Origin: Brevinema sp.
GTDB taxonomy: Bacteria; Spirochaetota; Brevinematia; Brevinematales; Brevinemataceae
DNA length: 31,410 nucleotides
Reading direction: 5' to 3'
NCBI GenBank assembly: GCA_051647205.1
Contig: JBOFDR010000091.1
Coordinates: forward strand, 1-31,410
The notes below the pieces were generated by a model. That model was not told where the DNA came from, ran no database searches, and saw only the letters and a list, made by a program, of their open reading frames with translations. The position numbers and the translations under genes are program-made. Within the stretch, counting starts at the first letter, position 1. Every line of letters begins with the position of its first letter. Below are positions 4,929 through 18,087 of this stretch, piece by piece.

Positions 4929-4969
4929 ATACCCTCTATGCTAAATATTTGCTTTATAAGGAAATAATA

Positions 4970-6160
4970 ATGAAAAATCTTAAATTATATTGTATACTCG
5001 TCTTTGTTTTCGGCGTACTGTTTTCTGTCCACTCACAAGATATCCCTAAATTGTCTTTTTCTGCAGGCGATCTATTGTTTACTGTAGATCAAATTAGTGG
5101 ACGGTTTGGTTTGCGAAACATTAAAGAAAATGATTTTAATCTTAGTTCATTATTATTTGATCCTGGGTTTCCTACTTCTTATATTGAGATTTGTATTAAT
5201 GGGAATCCTTATCGATTAGAAGAATTGAAATCTGTTTATCCTTTAGGAATTGCTGCTGGTTATCAGATTGACGCTATTTATCAATGGGAGAATGATATTC
5301 AGATAGAGATTGGATACTTTACTATTGATGTAAAAACTAATCTTGATGCTATTGGTATTGCTGTTCGCATTACCAATATCTCAGATCGGGATCAACATAC
5401 TGTTTCTGTGAAATTATTATTAGACACTGATATTAGTGAGATTGATAATAAATCTTTGGTTTATCTCCAAAATGGTGAACATATTACTGAAGGAAGAATC
5501 TTTACAAATCCAACAATCCCTAATTATTTATTTTTTGGTAAAAAATCACAGTTTACCGAAAAAATAGAAGGAGCGGGATTATATCTGTATCCCACGATTT
5601 CTACTAATATTCCAAGAATGCTTGCTATTGGTAATTGGAAATATCTTTTAGATGCGGGCTCTTTTCCAAATAAAATCAATCCTTCTTTAAAATATCAAAA
5701 TAGTGATTCAATAGACATAGGTGTAGGGGTGTATTTTGATAAAAAAATACTTAAAGCTTCTGATTATTATGATGTTGCTTCTGCCATTTCTTTGAATAAA
5801 AATCAAACAGATTTTATTCTTGATCAAAAAATGATTGATAAAGGGGTATTTGCTCCAGAACGCTTTGAGATTGAAGAAATCTTACAACATCTTCCTACCA
5901 ATCATACAGCCAGGGTAGAGATTCGTTCTACACCTAGGTCTAAATCAATAATGAATACTTATGAGATCGCTAGACAAAATTATCGTCAGAAAAAACTACA
6001 AGTAGATACTACAGAGCTAGAAGCAGATTCTGTAAAAGCTTACGATTATTTAGGTAATTTATTACGAAATGATACTATCTGGAAGTACCTGTTTCAATTG
6101 AACTTCAAAATGGAAAATATTGAAGAAAAAATCAATAAAGTAATTAAAAGAGAAGATTAA
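4970..6160 (+). CDS. Exported hypothetical protein, beta-rich N-terminal domain and helical C-terminus
   Basis: SD aagga precedes ATG 4970. Signal peptide MKNLKLYCILVFVFGVLFSVHS. No recognised family. Probably co-transcribed with the TPR gene (41-nt gap). Confidence 0.65.
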   Translation: MKNLKLYCILVFVFGVLFSVHSQDIPKLSFSAGDLLFTVDQISGRFGLRNIKENDFNLSSLLFDPGFPTSYIEICINGNPYRLEELKSVYPLGIAAGYQIDAIYQWENDIQIEIGYFTIDVKTNLDAIGIAVRITNISDRDQHTVSVKLLLDTDISEIDNKSLVYLQNGEHITEGRIFTNPTIPNYLFFGKKSQFTEKIEGAGLYLYPTISTNIPRMLAIGNWKYLLDAGSFPNKINPSLKYQNSDSIDIGVGVYFDKKILKASDYYDVASAISLNKNQTDFILDQKMIDKGVFAPERFEIEEILQHLPTNHTARVEIRSTPRSKSIMNTYEIARQNYRQKKLQVDTTELEADSVKAYDYLGNLLRNDTIWKYLFQLNFKMENIEEKINKVIKRED

Positions 6161-6223: not shown

Positions 6224-6315
6224 ATTTAAAACCGATAAAATTAATGAATTCTCTTATCTTGAGGAATTTTATTGAATTAATAATAAGATTTTTTATCGAA
6301 TCAAGGAATATTCAT

Positions 6316-8376
6316 ATGTCACAATGTATTTTTGATGCGATCTCTTTGCTAGAAGAAAAATTATCATCGGAACACCTAAATATTCACGAAACAAAAGAAA
6401 TGCTTGCTGATATTGTCAAAAAAAGTAGAGCCAACACTAAATTACGTATTATCACACAGTTTTTGGTGATCTTACATGCACTTACTGATGAATATGAATA
6501 TGAAAATACTGATCAGATTAGTTTTATCAAGGAACTTGTTAATAAGTCTCTTTCTTTGATTAGAGGTATGTCTGAGGGGACAATCAACTATACACAAGGC
6601 GTTTATTTAATAGAGCAAAAAATTGTCGAGATCTCTTCTTTTTTTAAACGAAAAATTGGTACTGATACTTTTCTTAGTAACTCTATTTTATCAGAACAAC
6701 TAGCAGTAGAATTGAAAACAGAAATGGCCAATATAAAAATAATTATTGATCAGCTTAATGAAGAAAAAAAGGATATTGATACTCAGTTTAAAGAAATAGT
6801 TTATCATTTAAAACGTTTGATTACTTTTGTTGATCTGATAGGGGTAACAGTTTTCTGTGATGAACTTCATAAAATAAAAGATTTTATTATAGATCAATAT
6901 AACAAAAATCAATTACCCCTCCTCAAAGAGAATAAACTTTTTCAAGAAGTACTATTTTATTTTTATGAAGTTGGTTTAAAAATTTCAGCTATTTATCATA
7001 GTACTAAAGAATTAACCTCCTATATCAATAGTATCAATAGTAGTCATTTTCCTAATATTTTAGAGGACTATACCACTCAAATGAATAAAGAAAATTCTTT
7101 TTCTAATACTTCAGAAGAAGGGTCTAAAAATAATCTCCGGTTTTCAAGAAATCAACATATGGATGATTATACTTCTTTATTAAGTAGTGATGAGATTAAT
7201 GCTTTAATGAATAATGATGATCCTTTTCCCAGCATTGATTTTGATCAAGTGCCACATTCTTCTGATACTAAAGAAGAAGCTGTTCCTTTTGATCTTTCTT
7301 TAGAAACAGCAAATGATATTTTTCATCAACAACAAAATCTATACATTCCTTCTACTTCTATAAAAATTGATCATATTAAAGATGAAGACAAATTAATTCA
7401 ATTAACAGGAAAATTATTTTTGAAGCAAGAGCAGATTAAATATCTTATTTCTAAGGATAATCAGATGATGTTGGCTGATTTGACAGAGCTGGATCAATTA
7501 ACAGATGATATTAAGCAGGTTCTTTTTCAACATTACTATATTTCGTTTAAAAATCTTCTCGGTGAAGAATTACGTACATTTATTAAAACAGAAGCAACAA
7601 ATTTAGGGAAAAAACTAAGATTAGGAATCAAAGGGGAAGACGTCGAGATTTTATCTCGAGAGCAGGATTTTGTGAAAAAAATAGTCTTTGATATTGTTGG
7701 TTATTCTTTGCAGCGTAGTATTGAGGTGATTTCTCGGAGAAAAGCTCTTGATAAAAATGAATCTGCTTCTTTATTGATTGAGTTTGATGATAGTGGGGAT
7801 ACCTTGTCAATTTATATTCGGGATGATGGGCGAGGAATCTCAGATGATGCTACAGTTTTAACTGATATTCAATCAAAAGTTATTGAAAAACAAGGTTTAA
7901 TGGATATTGAGACAGAAGAAAATGAATATCTTAAAATACGAATTCATTTACCAATGAAAAAAATAATTACTAAATCTCTTGTTGTACAAATTAAAGATAC
8001 CAAATTTCTTTTTCCTAGCAAATCTATTCTTCAAATCCTCACCCCTAGTGAGGCCGCTATTATCTTAAAAACAGATCATTGTTTAGGGCAAATTGCTTTA
8101 ACTACCTTAACAGGAATGGATCGGTCTATCGTTAATGCTTATTTGTTCTGTCTTTTTGGAAATGAAAAAATATTACTTGGTGTAGAGAATATATTATATT
8201 ATACAGAAGCACTTATGGAAAAAGTTAATGTTCCTTTGATTCCATGTACCAGTAGTGTAGTTGTTTTAAAAGATGGTACAATTGGTTTTGTAATCGATGA
8301 ACGAAAGATCTACAGTGAAAGTAAAAAACTCATTGAAAAACGTACAGAAATATTTCTAGAAAATATGATTATTTAA
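6316..8376 (+). CDS. CheA-like protein with degenerate Hpt and kinase motifs (predicted pseudokinase)
   Basis: SD aagga precedes ATG 6316 (in frame with track ORF 6244). Contains a P3-like SIKIDHIKDEDKLIQLTGKL, a P4-like NLGKKLRLGIKGEDVEI, G1 box IRDDGRGI, the RIHLPM junction and a C-terminal CheW-like P5 ending GTIGFVID. N-box, ATP lid and G2 box are degenerate or absent. Confidence 0.85.
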   Translation: MSQCIFDAISLLEEKLSSEHLNIHETKEMLADIVKKSRANTKLRIITQFLVILHALTDEYEYENTDQISFIKELVNKSLSLIRGMSEGTINYTQGVYLIEQKIVEISSFFKRKIGTDTFLSNSILSEQLAVELKTEMANIKIIIDQLNEEKKDIDTQFKEIVYHLKRLITFVDLIGVTVFCDELHKIKDFIIDQYNKNQLPLLKENKLFQEVLFYFYEVGLKISAIYHSTKELTSYINSINSSHFPNILEDYTTQMNKENSFSNTSEEGSKNNLRFSRNQHMDDYTSLLSSDEINALMNNDDPFPSIDFDQVPHSSDTKEEAVPFDLSLETANDIFHQQQNLYIPSTSIKIDHIKDEDKLIQLTGKLFLKQEQIKYLISKDNQMMLADLTELDQLTDDIKQVLFQHYYISFKNLLGEELRTFIKTEATNLGKKLRLGIKGEDVEILSREQDFVKKIVFDIVGYSLQRSIEVISRRKALDKNESASLLIEFDDSGDTLSIYIRDDGRGISDDATVLTDIQSKVIEKQGLMDIETEENEYLKIRIHLPMKKIITKSLVVQIKDTKFLFPSKSILQILTPSEAAIILKTDHCLGQIALTTLTGMDRSIVNAYLFCLFGNEKILLGVENILYYTEALMEKVNVPLIPCTSSVVVLKDGTIGFVIDERKIYSESKKLIEKRTEIFLENMII

Positions 8377-8384
8377 GAGGTACT

Positions 8385-8837
8385 ATGCCAGTAGTAATAC
8401 CGTTTATGGTAGGTGAAGGTTGGTTTGGACTAACATTAGATTTTGTTAAGGGAATTGAATCCACAGGTTCTATATCTCTTATACCTAATTCTCAAAAGCC
8501 TCTTGTAGGTTTGATGCATAAGAACAATAAGATTATCCCTGTTTGGTCTATAACTCCAGCTATTTTAGACCGCCAAAGTGAAATACAGCATCGTCGCTAT
8601 TACATAGATTTATTGATAGATAATCAACAAATCGCAATACCTGTTGATGTAGTAAAAACTGTGACTGAAGTAGCTGAGGGATGGATTCCTTCCGAAATTG
8701 CTGGACTGACGATTTATCGTTCTTTGGGCAAGAATCCTTCTTTAGAAACACAGAAACTTGTTAAAGAAATAAAAATCCCAGAGTCTAAGTTTTACAAAGA
8801 CACAGAATTGTCCTCTTTTTCATTAGAAGACATATAA
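8385..8837 (+). CDS. Divergent CheW-like protein
   Basis: 8 nt after the cheA-like gene, SD gagg. FMVGEGWFGLTLDFVKGI, LIPNSQKPLVGLM, IIPVWSI and IAIPVDVV match the CheW fold pattern. The canonical NLRG is replaced by HKNN. Confidence 0.85.
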   Translation: MPVVIPFMVGEGWFGLTLDFVKGIESTGSISLIPNSQKPLVGLMHKNNKIIPVWSITPAILDRQSEIQHRRYYIDLLIDNQQIAIPVDVVKTVTEVAEGWIPSEIAGLTIYRSLGKNPSLETQKLVKEIKIPESKFYKDTELSSFSLEDI

Positions 8838-15200: not shown

Positions 15201-16049
15201 ATGAAATTGGATGAATTTTTTATTAAATATATTGTAAAAGAATACCAGGAACAAAAAAATCCTTCTCAAATTCAAATATTTCAAGAAGCAATTTGTGAAT
15301 TTGTTGAAGAATGGACTAAGATCACCTACCATTGTTCAACAGATATAGCACGTGATTTTTTAGTATATATTTTAGAATTCTCAGAACAAATCATGCTTTC
15401 TTATCCTAAAGATTTGAGAGTACTTTTTAAGACATGGTTTATTGCTGTATTAACAAATAAATTCGCCGATTTTTCTAAAACAACAGCAATATTTTCTCCT
15501 TATGCTGTAATAGATTTTGATTTTTTTGAAGAAACCTTAATTGATGTTGAATACTCGCAATCTCTATATTATGAACAATTAATGGGATTAATGGATAAAT
15601 TATCTTCATATGAGCAAAGTATCGTGTTTTTTTTGTATATGCCAAGAGATATTAATGAAAAACATTTTTATCATTTGTCTAAATTTTTTCAAAAACCTGT
15701 ACATATTATAATGAAAGTGTATCATAATATTTTAAAAGTACAAGAGATATCATTAAAAAATCAAGAAACAATACAGTTAGAACGGGATAAAATAAATCAA
15801 AAAATTATTCGATTAGAACATATGTACAAAAAAACACAAAATCTTTCTAAAAAAGATTCATTGGTCAATAAAATTTCTTATTTCAAAAATAGACAGTATA
15901 AATTATCCTTACAAATAAAAACAAAGAAAAAAATTCTTTTGAAACATTTTGAAGAATTAGTAGGGGATTATCAATCTACCTATTCATTAATTAGAAAAAT
16001 CGAAACTAAAATTCGTGTACTATTAAGTGAGCTAATTGGAGACCAGTAA
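15201..16049 (+). CDS. Atypical ECF-like sigma70-family factor with a long insertion in region 4
   Basis: ARDFLVYI and LFKTWFIAVLTNKFADF resemble sigma region 2. LMDKLSSYEQSIVFFLY resembles the start of region 4. The terminal KHFEELVGDYQSTYSLIRKIETKIRVLL resembles the 4.2 HTH. About 100 charged helical residues lie between the two region-4 parts. Confidence 0.65.
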   Translation: MKLDEFFIKYIVKEYQEQKNPSQIQIFQEAICEFVEEWTKITYHCSTDIARDFLVYILEFSEQIMLSYPKDLRVLFKTWFIAVLTNKFADFSKTTAIFSPYAVIDFDFFEETLIDVEYSQSLYYEQLMGLMDKLSSYEQSIVFFLYMPRDINEKHFYHLSKFFQKPVHIIMKVYHNILKVQEISLKNQETIQLERDKINQKIIRLEHMYKKTQNLSKKDSLVNKISYFKNRQYKLSLQIKTKKKILLKHFEELVGDYQSTYSLIRKIETKIRVLLSELIGDQ

Positions 16050-16051
16050 AT

Positions 16052-16552
16052 ATGAACAAAATGTTGTTGTATATAGAAAATAAACTCCCCCTCGACCAAA
16101 TGAATGAATATTCTTCTTTTCTAAAAAATAATCCAGATGAGATGAAGAAGGTGGTGCAACTTTCTAAGGCATTAGCAATTTATGATGCTCAGCATTCTCG
16201 AATTCATACTATGGAGATTGTTGATAAGCCATCTTCTTACTTAGATTTTATGTTAACAGGGTTGATTGACTTGATTGATCGGAAAAAACTTGCTTTTAGA
16301 GGATCTCATGATGTAATTATTGATAGTTTTTGCTTTTTAAAGCTAACTCTTCAAGTAATTAAAAAGAAAGAACAAGGCTTAGAATTGATAATTACTTCAG
16401 CAGAAAATCTTTGGTGTGAGTGGATGGATCTGGCTACTGGAAATACAGATATCATTACTCTTGGAGAGGCCGTACCAATTATTGCTGATCAAAGATACTT
16501 ACTACGTTATGATGATGAAGGCTATTCGGAACTTTTATTTATTTCTTTTTAA
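16052..16552 (+). CDS. Hypothetical protein, candidate cytoplasmic anti-sigma factor
   Basis: Starts 2 nt after the sigma-like gene. N-terminus LLYIENKLPLDQMNEYSSFLKNNPDEMKKV has the zf-HC2/ASD helical pattern but lacks the His/Cys ligands. No TM segment. Confidence 0.5.
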   Translation: MNKMLLYIENKLPLDQMNEYSSFLKNNPDEMKKVVQLSKALAIYDAQHSRIHTMEIVDKPSSYLDFMLTGLIDLIDRKKLAFRGSHDVIIDSFCFLKLTLQVIKKKEQGLELIITSAENLWCEWMDLATGNTDIITLGEAVPIIADQRYLLRYDDEGYSELLFISF

Positions 16553-16555
16553 ATC

Positions 16556-16586
16556 AAATAACCCCCTATTTTATAGGGGGTTATTT
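16556..16586. terminator. Bidirectional intrinsic terminator
   Basis: Perfect inverted repeat aaataaccccctat-ttt-atagggggttattt between convergent genes. Confidence 0.85.
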
Positions 16587-18012
16587 ATTCTGAAATATTC
16601 ATATTTTGTGAAATAATAGGATCAACACCATAGGTATTACGATATAGTTGTTCAAAATTCTTAACTAATCCATCTCGGATAAGAATGATTTTGGTTTCTG
16701 AAATTGATGGTTGTTTGGAGTTTTCTTGACTATGATAATCTAAAAGATACTCGTGTAATGCTGAGGATTGTTCTTTCATATGTGTACAAATACGCTTTAT
16801 TTCTGATAGTGATTCGGCACTTTGATCTAATTGAGAAAAATCTAGTGTTGGAGTCGTATGACTAGGAGTTCCTATCGCTGTATTCTTAATATCAGGAAGT
16901 GTTTCCAGAATATTTTTAGCAACGGCATAGGATTTTCTGATTACGAGATCGGCATCTCTTAGTTCTTCAATAATAGCATGCCCAATATTAGAACTTTTCT
17001 CAGCAAAATTCTTCACACGATCGGAAACAGACATAAAGACTTTTCCAGAATCACCAGCTTTAGATGCTTCGATAGAGATATTAAGCGCTAAGATTCCTGC
17101 TTGAAAACCATTATCAGAGGATGATTTTGCAAGAGTGGAAGCTCGTTCTGCTCTTGTGAAAAGACGTGAGAGCATTTTTTGCATAGAAAGAATTTTTTCT
17201 TTTAATACTACTGAATCCTGATTATTTAGATGATCTAGTGATTGTTGATGATCGCTTATATTGATGCTTGTGGTTCCTGCTTTAGAAATATATTCGGAAA
17301 TACTTTTTTGAATAGGATCAATCTTTAGGGGTAGCTCGTTTGAATACTTTAATAAAGAATAAAGATGCTCTATGTTGAATTTGTGAGAAGTATTTTGTGT
17401 ATTAGCAGATTCCCAATCAATAGATTGCAATTCTTCCCAAATATTTTCAAGCACAACAGAATTTTTAGCAATGATTTTTTTAGATAGCAAAGATGCACCA
17501 TTTAATGTCATAAAAATACAAATAAAAATAAATCCCATATAAACAGGAAGTATTAATTTTATAAATAAATAAATAAAAGAAGTTTTTATGGTAGAGTTAA
17601 TTATTCTTTTTATGAGTTCGATCTGATCATAAAATTCTTGGAAAGCATTTCCTTTTTCTTCTAAGTTTTTACTGGATAGTGAGGAATAAAATTTTTCACT
17701 AATCTCCTGTAATAAATTTATTTCTGCTTCAGCATTAGGAAGGGTTTTTAAAAATTGTTTTTTATGAAGAATGTTCCATGAACTAAGACTTGTTTTAGAA
17801 CTATCAATATCGATATTATTATTTAATAACATTGATGCTTCACTGCTGATTTCAGTAAAATACAAGGCGTTTTTTTGTAACAAGGTATGTTCAGAGTTCT
17901 TAATAAAATAAAATAATGCACAAACAATAGTAAAAATAGATAATAAAATCCATACAGCGATTATTTTTTGTGAGTATTTAGTAACAGATGAATTTATGTT
18001 ATCATATGCCAT
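16585..18012 (-). CDS. Divergent methyl-accepting chemotaxis protein-like receptor
   Basis: SD ggagg precedes ATG 18012. Two TM segments flank a ~105-aa helical sensor region. Hairpin-tip-like FQAGILALNISIEASKAGDSGKVFMSVSDRVKNFAEKS. Confidence 0.85.
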   Translation of the reverse strand: MAYDNINSSVTKYSQKIIAVWILLSIFTIVCALFYFIKNSEHTLLQKNALYFTEISSEASMLLNNNIDIDSSKTSLSSWNILHKKQFLKTLPNAEAEINLLQEISEKFYSSLSSKNLEEKGNAFQEFYDQIELIKRIINSTIKTSFIYLFIKLILPVYMGFIFICIFMTLNGASLLSKKIIAKNSVVLENIWEELQSIDWESANTQNTSHKFNIEHLYSLLKYSNELPLKIDPIQKSISEYISKAGTTSINISDHQQSLDHLNNQDSVVLKEKILSMQKMLSRLFTRAERASTLAKSSSDNGFQAGILALNISIEASKAGDSGKVFMSVSDRVKNFAEKSSNIGHAIIEELRDADLVIRKSYAVAKNILETLPDIKNTAIGTPSHTTPTLDFSQLDQSAESLSEIKRICTHMKEQSSALHEYLLDYHSQENSKQPSISETKIILIRDGLVKNFEQLYRNTYGVDPIISQNMNISE

Positions 18013-18059
18013 CTTATCATCCTCCATCGAATAGAAAAATTATCGTAATCGTAAATAAG

Positions 18060-18087
18060 ATATCGGTATAAAGTATAAAATATTTAG
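18060..18087 (-). promoter_or_regulatory. Putative sigma28 promoter for the MCP-like gene
   Basis: Minus strand CTAAA (18087-18083), N15, ACCGATAT (18067-18060), 47 nt upstream of the ATG. Close to the SigD/FliA consensus (C)TAAA-N15/16-GCCGATAT. Confidence 0.7.

What the first reader, a model, noticed from the sequence alone, without database searches (positions are those of the whole stretch)
7177..7209. FliM-N-like CheY~P-binding peptide embedded in the pseudo-CheA linker
Seen: LLSSDEINALM lies in a polar, probably disordered linker at the position where CheA normally has its P2 CheY-binding domain. Known: the FliM/FliY N-terminal motif LSQxEIDALL binds phosphorylated CheY. Inference: P2 has been replaced by a switch-mimic peptide, so the protein could capture or localise CheY~P as a decoy or buffer instead of phosphorylating CheY. 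That would reverse the normal role of CheA.
Basis: partly seen in the sequence, partly recalled or inferred. Interest (0 to 1): 0.72.

Follow-up and report, generated by a model that had tools for sequence, protein, structure and literature searches.

The report
CheY-docking-like peptide in pseudo-CheA linker
A kinase-dead copy of the chemotaxis kinase CheA, found only in Brevinema-family spirochaetes, carries in its floppy linker a conserved short peptide resembling the one the flagellar motor uses to catch the signal protein CheY; it may hold CheY away from the motor, but no binding has been shown.

Summary
LLSSDEINALM is encoded at 7177-7209 (+), residues 288-298 of a 686-aa protein (6316-8376). 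That protein is a CheA derivative without a conserved phospho-acceptor His and without the ATP lid and G2 box. The peptide lies in a 107-residue, low-confidence, polar linker between two His-less P1-like bundles and P3.

Across 17 non-redundant orthologues (31-60% identity) the peptide is an ungapped conserved island, L[ST]x[DE]E[IV]x[A/V/E]L[M/L/T], in an otherwise variable, gappy linker. The family occurs in all 12 sampled genomes of one spirochaete family (Brevinemataceae by database labels) and in none of 389 other Spirochaetota genomes sampled.

In an unbiased scan of this genome with its own FliM peptide, the linker peptide ranks third, after FliM itself and FliN/FliY.

- CheY~P docking is the best reading (about 0.45) but is untested.
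- The Gln and Asp that are invariant in FliM are never present, and profile searches do not cross-match.
- FlhG or the adjacent CheW-like protein are alternative partners.
- "Decoy/buffer" is one of several possible roles.

The scan has noted FliM-type peptides outside FliM in other genomes, but not this family. I found no paper describing it.

The parts
6316..8376 (+). Gene for the CheA-derived pseudokinase (686 aa, P0002; an upstream in-frame ATG at 6244 is not used by orthologues)
   Evidence: ORF. The database gene call and orthologues start at the residue encoded at 6316. PDB phmmer matches CheA P3-P4-P5 at E 3e-11. No Pfam hit.
6316..7053 (+). Two tandem P1(HPt)-like five-helix bundles (residues 1-118 and 119-246) without a conserved phospho-acceptor His
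   Evidence: AF2 pLDDT 90.6. The four top matches of 48,161 chains are CheA P1 domains: 3kyj_A Z 11.8 on residues 122-246, 2lp4 Z 11.6 on 1-117, 1tqg Z 11.4, 1i5n Z 11.2. hhalign of bundle 2 against a CheA P1 profile gives E 1.9e-4 and prob 48%, with the phospho-His column aligned to a variable Lys. Bundle 1 is not significant by sequence.
7054..7374 (+). Disordered, polar, fast-evolving linker (residues 247-353)
   Evidence: pLDDT below 50 for 250-353. 70% polar, charged, Pro or Gly. Top-residue fraction 0.09-0.39 with many gaps outside the motif.
7177..7209 (+). Core peptide LLSSDEINALM (residues 288-298); family pattern h-L-[ST]-x-[DE]-E-[IV]-x-[AVE]-L-[MLT]
   Evidence: Translation. L289, E293, A296 and L297 are invariant. 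Present in all 12 family genomes. Predicted short helix 291-297. BLOSUM62 score 36 against the organism's own FliM 11-mer, third best in the proteome.
7210..7242 (+). Conserved extension NNDDPFPSIDF (residues 299-309): acidic/Asn run, then F-x-x-[VI]-x-F
   Evidence: The block 301-310 has top-residue fraction 0.53 and almost no gaps (0.02). Alignment of 23 sequences. An HMM that includes the extension finds the window's copy at E 4.9e-8 and nothing else in the genome.
7375..7527 (+). P3-like dimerisation helices (residues 354-404)
   Evidence: Aligned to CheA P3 in 8c5v and 6s1k. Helices 354-377 and 388-404 in the model.
7537..7953 (+). Degenerate P4 (residues 408-546). N-box DIVGYSLQRSIE against HMIRNSLDHGIE in the genome's own CheA; G1 DDGRG is kept; the segment of the canonical CheA that carries the G2 box (GRGVGMD) has no counterpart
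   Evidence: BLASTP against the genome's own CheA. PDB alignments. The P4 segment between G1 and the C-terminal strands is equally short in all 11 aligned family members, none showing a GxGxG G2 motif there.
7966..8295 (+). P5 (CheW-like) domain (residues 551-660), followed by a C-terminal helix
   Evidence: Second matched stretch to CheA P4/P5 (query 512-606). Beta-rich model segment.
8385..8837 (+). Adjacent divergent CheW-like gene (150 aa), conserved directly downstream in the family loci that extend that far
   Evidence: Pfam CheW E 7.5e-8, 32.5 bits. Conserved cassette in loci L011-L021.

Best explanation
The peptide is a conserved short linear motif in the disordered P1-to-P3 linker of a kinase-dead CheA paralogue restricted to one spirochaete family (Brevinemataceae by database labels).

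Shown:
- It exists, it sits in a disordered linker, and it is under selection.
- Its conserved positions (L, S/T, acidic, E, I/V, A, L, M/L) are those of the FliM/FliY N-terminal EIDAL peptide.
- The host protein cannot act as a kinase as far as sequence tells.
- Each genome has one CheY, with the standard FliM-binding residues.

Inferred: the peptide folds into a short amphipathic helix that docks into the alpha4-beta5-alpha5 groove of the organism's single CheY, preferentially its phosphorylated form, as FliM_N does. The protein keeps P3 and P5 and is encoded with its own CheW-like partner, so it would tether CheY~P to a non-catalytic CheA/CheW-type scaffold, probably at a receptor array. 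That would compete with the motor switch for CheY~P (a sink or buffer), or present CheY~P to the phosphatase CheX. The constant absence of FliM's Asp and Gln suggests a weaker or tuned affinity compared with the motor.
For: - Motif and frame.
- Conserved, almost gap-free island in a variable linker across 17 non-redundant orthologues at 31-60% identity.
- Disorder with a helix at 291-297.
- Third-best match in the whole proteome to the organism's own FliM peptide, after FliM and FliN/FliY (36, against background of 30 or less).
- Mean score of family peptides 28.3 against FliM, versus 13.8 against the LID repeat core.
- Kinase-dead host: N-box Asn replaced by Tyr in this copy, no G2 box in any family member, no conserved phospho-His.
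- One CheY per genome in 12 of 12 genomes, 76-95% identical, keeping the equivalents of D57, T87, Y106 and K109.
- A canonical cheA-cheW-cheX-cheY operon exists elsewhere in the genome, so this protein is an addition and not the pathway kinase.
- The family is present in 12 of 12 genomes of one GTDB family.
- Known biology: FliM_N binds the alpha4/alpha5 groove of CheY-P as a high-affinity tether (PMC9126983; PMC6946799).
Against: - The Gln and Asp that are invariant in 96 of 96 spirochaete FliM N-termini are never found in the pseudo-CheA peptide.
- An HMM of FliM N-termini gives the peptide 0.8 bits (rank 271), and the reverse HMM does not retrieve FliM.
- The family-average similarity to FliM (28) equals the proteome-wide background maximum (28-38 in shuffles). 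Significance therefore rests on restricting the search to the linker.
- [ST]-x-x-E followed by an amphipathic helix is a common helix-capping pattern. For example, TLSKEEIEALV occurs in an Mrp-like ATPase.
- The same motif class binds FlhG in other bacteria.
- One peptide per monomer makes a stoichiometric sink plausible only if the protein is abundant.
Confidence: 0.45

Rival explanations
1. The peptide docks FlhG, the MinD-like flagellar-number ATPase, as the EIDAL motif of FliM or FliY does in Shewanella and Bacillus. It would then link the pseudo-CheA/CheW-like scaffold to the flagellar pole or to C-ring assembly, not to CheY signalling.
For: The EIDAL motif is reported as necessary and sufficient for FlhG binding in S. 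putrefaciens (bioRxiv 10.1101/2022.04.21.489128, citing Schuhmacher et al.). This genome encodes a 294-aa MinD-like ATPase directly downstream of flhF. The sequence evidence that links the peptide to FliM_N fits this partner equally well.
Against: No evidence links FlhG to chemotaxis kinases. FliM and FliN/FliY already carry full motifs in these genomes. The residues needed for FlhG binding are not known to me, so the loss of Gln and Asp cannot be interpreted.
Confidence: 0.15
2. The peptide is a LID-type docking site. In F6-class CheA of Vibrio and Pseudomonas, short acidic helix repeats (core EFExLLD) in the linker bind the CheW-like domain of ParP. By analogy, this peptide would bind the CheW-like protein encoded next door, or another array scaffold, to stabilise or position the complex.
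For: The location is the same (CheA linker before P3) and the motif is of similar type (acidic amphipathic helix) (bioRxiv 10.1101/2025.10.27.684771). A divergent CheW-like gene is conserved immediately downstream in the family. Language-model features of the peptide resemble SHOCT-bearing clusters, and one low-ranked cluster (score 0.78) also carries the CheA dimerisation domain in 38% of members; all scores are 0.84 or below, so this is a lead only.
Against: The peptide is much closer to FliM than to the LID core (mean BLOSUM62 score 28.3 against 13.8). There is a single copy, not repeats. The neighbour is only 150 aa and has no ParP-like N-terminal region. The only ParA/MinD-type ATPases found in this 87.5%-complete genome are Mrp-like, FlhG and Soj next to ParB, with no extra ParC candidate. 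P5 already provides the usual CheW interface.
Confidence: 0.15
3. The peptide binds CheY~P to sense it, not to sequester it. Occupancy would change the conformation or array coupling of the pseudo-CheA, giving output-to-input feedback as in DivL-DivK~P. Alternatively it would hand CheY~P to the His-less P1-like bundles or to CheX for dephosphorylation, as in CheA3 of R. sphaeroides or the CheA-short/CheZ arrangement of E. coli.
For: All the evidence for CheY docking applies. In addition, two well-folded P1-like bundles are retained without a phospho-His, which implies a binding role and not a phosphotransfer role. CheX is the phosphatase of the canonical operon and has no docking peptide of its own in this genome. 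Precedents: PMC6829392 and PMC4211667. CheA-short/CheZ is cited from general knowledge.
Against: There is no evidence of any phosphatase motif or of a CheX interaction. This reading is a refinement of the best explanation more than an alternative to it.
Confidence: 0.15
4. The peptide is an intramolecular or generic helix element, for example one that packs on its own P1-like, P3 or P4 domains, or a helix-capping motif kept for folding. On this reading its likeness to FliM_N is coincidental.
For: Profile searches do not connect it with FliM. Similar strings occur in unrelated proteins at background level. One of 20 shuffled proteomes produced an equally good match.
Against: The AF2 model does not dock it on any domain (pLDDT 44 or below around it). 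All conserved positions coincide with EIDAL positions. It occurs in a chemotaxis protein at the CheY-docking position. It lies in a disordered region, which is typical of partner-binding linear motifs.
Confidence: 0.1

Closest known systems
FliM / FliY N-terminal CheY-P docking peptide (LSQxEIDALL, 'EIDAL' motif; complex PDB 1F4V)
   Same: A short helix-forming peptide in a disordered segment. It shares L, S/T, acidic, E, I/V, A, L and L/M at the same spacing. It is the third-best match in this proteome to the organism's own FliM peptide.
   Different: It is internal, in the linker of a CheA-like protein, and not at the N-terminus of a switch protein. The Gln and Asp of the motif are never present. 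It has its own conserved acidic F-x-x-[VI]-x-F extension. No profile-level match was found. Binding is untested.
CheA P2 domain (CheY/CheB docking domain of canonical CheA)
   Same: It occupies the segment between P1 and P3. From general knowledge, P2 engages the same face of CheY as the inferred target here.
   Different: P2 is a folded alpha/beta domain that serves phosphotransfer. Here there is a roughly 20-residue linear motif in a protein without a kinase or a phospho-His. The genome's canonical CheA has only a weak, sub-threshold P2 match (E 0.0045, 17.5 bits against a cut-off of 23).
CheA3 of Rhodobacter sphaeroides (P1 + phosphatase region + P5) and E. coli CheA-short/CheZ
   Same: These are CheA-derived proteins without kinase activity of their own that act on, or recruit factors acting on, CheY~P at the array (PMC6829392).
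   Different: CheA3 keeps a phosphorylatable P1 and lacks P3 and P4. The Brevinema protein keeps P3 and a lid-less P4, lacks the His, and shows no homology to the CheA3 middle region.
LID repeats of F6-class CheA (EFExLLD core) that bind ParP
   Same: An acidic amphipathic helix motif in the CheA linker, with a CheW-like-domain protein as the known partner (bioRxiv 10.1101/2025.10.27.684771).
   Different: Single copy. Low sequence likeness (mean score 13.8 against 28.3 for FliM). No ParC/ParP system was found.
DivL pseudokinase of Caulobacter (binds DivK~P)
   Same: A histidine-kinase-derived protein repurposed to read the phosphorylation state of a single-domain response regulator (PMC4211667).
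   Different: A different kinase class and a different binding mode (a DHp/CA surface, not a linear motif). This is a functional analogy only.

Membership tests
FliM_N / EIDAL CheY-P docking peptide | Core helix residues L-S-x-x-E-I-x-A-L-L at fixed spacing | tested here: met
   LLSSDEINALM against the organism's FliM ILSQDEIDALL: 7 of 11 identical. The family pattern is L[ST]x[DE]E[IV]x[AVE]L[MLT], with L289, E293, A296 and L297 invariant.
FliM_N / EIDAL CheY-P docking peptide | The Gln (LSQ) and Asp (EIDAL) that are invariant in FliM of this lineage | tested here: not met
   96 spirochaete FliM N-termini all have Q and D. None of 19 pseudo-CheA peptides has either.
FliM_N / EIDAL CheY-P docking peptide | Detectable by a profile of FliM N-termini | tested here: not met
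   An HMM of 96 spirochaete FliM N-termini gives 0.8 bits, rank 271. That profile is narrow and over-conserved, so the test is a harsh one.
FliM_N / EIDAL CheY-P docking peptide | Lies in a flexible segment and forms a short helix | tested here: met
   pLDDT below 50 for 250-353, with helix 291-297.
FliM_N / EIDAL CheY-P docking peptide | N-terminus of a C-ring switch protein (FliM, FliY, FliN) | tested here: not met
   It is internal to a CheA-like protein.
FliM_N / EIDAL CheY-P docking peptide | Phosphorylation-enhanced binding to the alpha4-beta5-alpha5 face of CheY | not testable with these tools
   This needs peptide binding assays with BeF3-activated CheY. The one complex-prediction job gave no verdict (see Tried and rejected).
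CheA histidine kinase | Homologous P3-P4-P5 core | tested here: met
   phmmer against PDB CheA chains: E 3.3e-11 (8c5v) and 1.1e-10 (6s1k). NCBIfam CheA models: E 5e-9, but far below the cut-offs.
CheA histidine kinase | P1 with phospho-acceptor His in an H-x-x-K-G motif | tested here: not met
   The fold is P1-like. In hhalign the His column of 18 CheA P1 domains aligns to a variable Lys. No His is invariant in residues 1-246.
CheA histidine kinase | ATP-binding N, G1, F and G2 boxes with ATP lid | tested here: not met
   N-box RNSLDHG is GYSLQRS in this copy. G1 is kept. The segment of the canonical CheA that carries the G2 box has no counterpart in any of the 11 aligned family members.
CheA histidine kinase | P2 docking domain | tested here: not met
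   No Pfam P2 hit. The region is a second helical bundle plus a disordered linker.
LID repeats of F6 CheA (ParP docking) | Repeated EFExLLD core | tested here: not met
   Single copy. Mean BLOSUM62 score 13.8 (range 8-22) against the P. putida repeat, versus 28.3 against FliM.
LID repeats of F6 CheA (ParP docking) | Co-occurrence with ParC/ParP | tested here: inconclusive
   Three ParA/MinD-type ATPases were found (Mrp-like, FlhG, Soj) and no obvious ParC, in an 87.5%-complete genome. The neighbouring CheW-like protein is only 150 aa.

The most novel reading that the evidence does not exclude
The pseudo-CheA, its dedicated CheW-like partner and possibly the atypical MCP of the same genomes form a non-catalytic, receptor-coupled platform whose only output is reversible capture of CheY~P through the linker peptide. 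That would be a stimulus-regulated sink or feedback sensor that lets the array read and shape its own output. It could be useful in a long spirochaete cell that must coordinate motors at both ends. This would be a new logic element in bacterial chemotaxis.
Probability: 0.15. Interest if true: 0.8.

Novelty: new variant of a known kind. Interest (0 to 1): 0.55.

Why it matters
CheY-docking peptides are textbook features of the flagellar switch, and P2 is the textbook CheY dock on CheA. A kinase-dead CheA that has swapped the folded dock for a switch-type peptide would show that arrays can be built to bind the pathway's output and not to produce it.

The family is unannotated ("hypothetical protein", no Pfam hit). 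It is universal in the sampled genomes of one family of host-associated spirochaetes and has only about nine 50%-identity clusters among 1.8 billion representatives. It is therefore a compact, well-defined system. A single peptide-binding experiment with one CheY would decide the question. If binding is confirmed, it adds to evidence that EIDAL-type motifs are portable modules used outside the motor.

Tried and rejected
- Complex prediction of the genome's CheY (alignment A3) with linker residues 275-322 (alignment A2): score 0.02 and no verdict, with a low-confidence partner fold. It counts neither for nor against binding.
- Pfam on the whole protein at E up to 10: nothing.
- HMM of 96 spirochaete FliM N-termini, full length and 12-column core, against all six-frame ORFs: it finds FliM only, and the pseudo-CheA peptide is at background.
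- Leave-one-out HMM of the pseudo-CheA peptide: it finds only the window's own copy, and FliM is not among the top 8.
- phmmer of the 33-residue peptide against PDB: no hit.
- Foldseek of the N-terminal model against PDB: nothing at E of 0.001 or below. VIA-align was needed to show P1-likeness.
- Profile search of the N-terminal region against PDB sequences: nothing significant.
- hhalign of bundle 1 against a CheA P1 profile: prob 4%.
- DNA comparison of the motif region with the 5' end of fliM: the two stretches, printed side by side and compared by eye, show no obvious similarity and use different codons for the shared residues. No formal alignment was run, so a recent copy is unlikely but not excluded.
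- Sigma-28-type promoter upstream of the gene: only a -10-like ACCGATAA at 6231-6238 without a -35, and CCGATAW is not enriched in the window.
- Scan of about 140 canonical CheA representatives for the motif in their linkers: none. The two loose hits are in the P4 region next to the conserved F-x-P-G-[FI]-S-T box.
- Literature searches for a CheA-like protein with a FliM-type peptide, or for a CheA pseudokinase: nothing relevant in the held library.
- Rejected idea: that the pseudo-CheA supplies a missing CheY dock to a P2-less canonical CheA. The canonical CheA has only a sub-threshold P2 match, so this is not excluded, but nothing supports it.
Full report
**What is at the coordinates.** Window 7177-7209 on the + strand reads LLSSDEINALM; the opposite strand has stops. 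The peptide is in frame with an ORF running 6244-8376. The database gene call (P0002, 686 aa) and all orthologues begin at the ATG at 6316. In that numbering the peptide is residues 288-298. The window is contig C91 of a 1.42-Mb, 87.5%-complete assembly. Close homologues of its proteins are labelled Brevinema sp. or Brevinemataceae in public records.

**The host protein.**
- Pfam finds nothing, even at E = 10.
- Sequence search of PDB chains finds CheA P3-P4-P5 (8c5v E 3.3e-11, 6s1k 1.1e-10, 1b3q 4.2e-9). NCBIfam CheA models match at E 5e-9, far under their cut-offs.
- Compared with the genome's own canonical CheA, the N-box HMIRNSLDHGIE has become DIVGYSLQRSIE, so the Mg-ATP Asn is Tyr. G1 (DDGRG) is kept.
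- The segment of the canonical CheA that carries the G2 box (GRGVGMD) has no counterpart. The same short form is seen in all 11 aligned family members, although eight of them keep the N-box Asn.
- An AlphaFold2 model (11-sequence alignment) gives helices for P3 (354-404), an alpha/beta P4 (408-546) and a beta-rich P5 (551-660). pLDDT is below 50 for residues 250-353, apart from a short helix at 291-297, which is the motif.
- Residues 1-246, modelled alone (pLDDT 90.6, pTM 0.87), form two five-helix bundles. In an all-against-all structural comparison with 48,161 PDB chains, the four best matches are CheA P1 domains: 3kyj_A Z 11.8 on residues 122-246, 2lp4 Z 11.6 on 1-117, 1tqg Z 11.4 and 1i5n Z 11.2. 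Helical bundles often reach such Z values, so this is fold-level evidence only.
- A profile comparison supports homology for bundle 2 (E 1.9e-4, prob 48%). It aligns the phospho-His column of 18 CheA P1 domains with a variable Lys. Bundle 1 is not significant by sequence. No His is invariant in residues 1-246.

The protein is therefore a CheA derivative that most likely can neither bind ATP productively nor accept phosphate. "Pseudo-CheA" is a fair name.

**Is the peptide more than chance?** Three lines bear on this.
- *Conservation.* An exhaustive HMMER search of 1.84 billion representatives finds only nine family clusters (E 1e-83 or better). There is then a gap down to ordinary CheAs at E 1e-18. 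Searching 401 Spirochaetota genomes finds the family in all 12 genomes of one GTDB family (three genera) and in none of the other 389. In 17 non-redundant sequences (31-60% identity), the 10-residue blocks 291-300 and 301-310 have top-residue fractions of 0.68 and 0.53 with almost no gaps. The remaining linker blocks between 241 and 360 score 0.09-0.39 and are gappy. L289, E293, A296 and L297 are among the 38 invariant columns of the 11-sequence alignment. The family pattern is h-L-[ST]-x-[DE]-E-[IV]-x-[A/V/E]-L-[M/L/T]. It is followed by an acidic/Asn run and F-x-x-[VI]-x-F.
- *Specificity.* Every 11-mer of all ORFs of 100 aa or more (430,944 positions) was scored against the organism's own FliM peptide. 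The result was FliM 50, the FliN/FliY N-terminus 37, this peptide 36, and then background at 30 or below. Twenty shuffled proteomes gave maxima of 28-38, and one of them reached 36 or more. Genome-wide this is only suggestive. Within a 107-residue linker of a chemotaxis protein, my own arithmetic on these counts gives an expectation of about 1.5e-3.
- *Context.* The peptide sits in a disordered, polar linker (70% polar, charged, Pro or Gly). This is the usual setting of partner-binding linear motifs.

**What weakens the FliM analogy.**
- FliM N-termini are almost frozen in this phylum (MTEILSQDEIDALLTA...). The Gln and Asp that never vary there are never present in the pseudo-CheA peptide, where the positions hold S, T, E, A, D, P, N or V and N, S, T, R, A or Y.
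- An HMM of 96 spirochaete FliM N-termini gives the peptide 0.8 bits. A leave-one-out HMM of the pseudo-CheA peptide does not recover FliM.
- Orthologue peptides score 23-36 (mean 28.3) against FliM. That is no better than the best random match in a whole proteome.
- The pattern [ST]-x-x-E plus an amphipathic helix is common. For example, TLSKEEIEALV occurs in an Mrp-like ATPase.
- By eye, the motif DNA shows no obvious similarity to the 5' end of fliM and uses different codons, so any likeness looks convergent or old.

**Candidate partners.**
- The genome has a canonical cheA-cheW-cheX-cheY operon, split over contigs C265 and C125.
- There is exactly one CheY per genome in all 12 family genomes, 76-95% identical. 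It keeps the residues equivalent to E. coli D12/D13, D57, T87, Y106 and K109, plus A103, V108 and a basic residue at the K119 position. The residue equivalences are my own reading of the alignment against E. coli numbering recalled from memory.
- FliM_N is known to bind the alpha4/alpha5 groove of CheY-P as a high-affinity tether (PMC9126983; PMC6946799).
- The same motif is reported to bind FlhG in Shewanella and Bacillus (bioRxiv 10.1101/2022.04.21.489128). This genome has a MinD-like ATPase next to flhF.
- A third model is the LID of F6-class CheA, whose EFExLLD repeats in the linker are thought to bind the CheW-like domain of ParP (bioRxiv 10.1101/2025.10.27.684771). Here a divergent CheW-like gene (Pfam E 7.5e-8) is conserved directly downstream. 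However, the peptide resembles the LID core much less than it resembles FliM (13.8 against 28.3), and no ParC candidate was found.

**Mechanism.**
- I rate CheY (preferentially CheY~P) docking as the most likely function, at about 0.45. On this reading the protein acts as a non-catalytic CheA/CheW-type scaffold that competes with the motor for CheY~P or presents it to CheX.
- A sensing or phosphatase-presentation version of the same idea is listed separately at 0.15.
- The steps shown are the motif's existence, its disorder, its conservation, the dead kinase and the single CheY.
- The steps inferred are the binding itself, its phosphorylation dependence, array incorporation through P5 and the CheW-like protein, and the physiological role.
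- The constant loss of the FliM Asp suggests a deliberately lower affinity than the motor site. From memory, that Asp pairs with CheY K119 in 1F4V. This is inference only.

**Comparison with what is known.** The peptide works like FliM_N/FliY_N but fails membership on position, on two lineage-invariant residues and on profile detection. The host is CheA-derived but fails the defining catalytic features. Precedents for CheA-like or kinase-like proteins that act on, or read, phosphorylated response regulators exist: CheA3 (PMC6829392) and DivL (PMC4211667). The "reversed role" is therefore a new variant and not a new category. None of about 140 canonical CheA representatives carries the motif in its linker. 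Literature searches found no description of such a protein. Earlier notes of this scan report FliM-type peptides in other non-FliM proteins of other genomes, including a CheA with an N-terminal arm of such motifs. Those notes are unchecked leads. One of them gave me the LID comparison.

**Verdict.** The finding is a new variant of a known kind, of moderate-to-good interest (0.55), and one peptide-binding experiment would settle the main question.

Noticed in passing
window 16585-18027 (-), promoter-like site 18061-18086 (-): An MCP with an unusually weak MCPsignal match (43.6 bits, against 56-112 bits for the genome's four other MCPs). It has an orthologue in all 12 family genomes. It lies 7-12 kb from the pseudo-CheA in those same-genus genomes where both genes are on one contig, but 72-105 kb away in the two other genera. 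A TAAA-N16-CCGATA sigma-28-like site lies just upstream. It could be the receptor partner of the pseudo-CheA/CheW-like pair.
   Followed up: partly
window 8385-8837 (+): The CheW-like gene directly after the pseudo-CheA matches Pfam CheW only weakly (E 7.5e-8, profile positions 5-96 of 138). It is conserved directly downstream in the family loci that extend that far.
   Followed up: partly
window 4949-6160 (+): A 403-aa protein with no Pfam or NCBIfam hit is always encoded directly upstream of the pseudo-CheA (400-440 aa in relatives). Its language-model look-alikes are spirochaete hypothetical-protein clusters. Whether it belongs to the module is unknown.
   Followed up: partly
window 6231-6238 (+): ACCGATAA, resembling a sigma-28 -10 element, lies 78 nt upstream of the 6316 start. 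No TAAA -35 element is present at the right spacing, and the heptamer is not enriched in the window.
   Followed up: yes
G000 C311:1-384 (-): The FliN/FliY-type N-terminus MSDTTLSQEELDAILSG carries a degenerate EIDAL motif (second-best match to FliM_N in the proteome). The gene is cut by the contig end, so whether it has a CheC-like phosphatase domain could not be seen.
   Followed up: no
G000 C265:41-1981 and C125:1-429: The canonical cheA is split across two contigs that overlap by the same 11 residues. It has Hpt, P3 and HATPase_c domains, but only a sub-threshold P2 match (E 0.0045).
   Followed up: partly
G000 C185 (+), residue ~100 of a 423-aa ORF: ALSQEEIDKVF is a partial EIDAL-like string at background score (29). 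It was the top non-FliM hit of the FliM_N HMM (E 1.2). The protein was not identified.
   Followed up: no
window 15201-16552 (+): Two adjacent ORFs (282 and 166 aa) have no Pfam hit. I did not examine them.
   Followed up: no
P0002 residues 283-312: Language-model features of the peptide are nearest to clusters carrying the SHOCT short C-terminal domain. One low-ranked cluster (score 0.78) also carries the CheA dimerisation domain in 38% of members. All scores are 0.84 or below, so this is a lead only, possibly pointing to LID-type repeats.
   Followed up: partly
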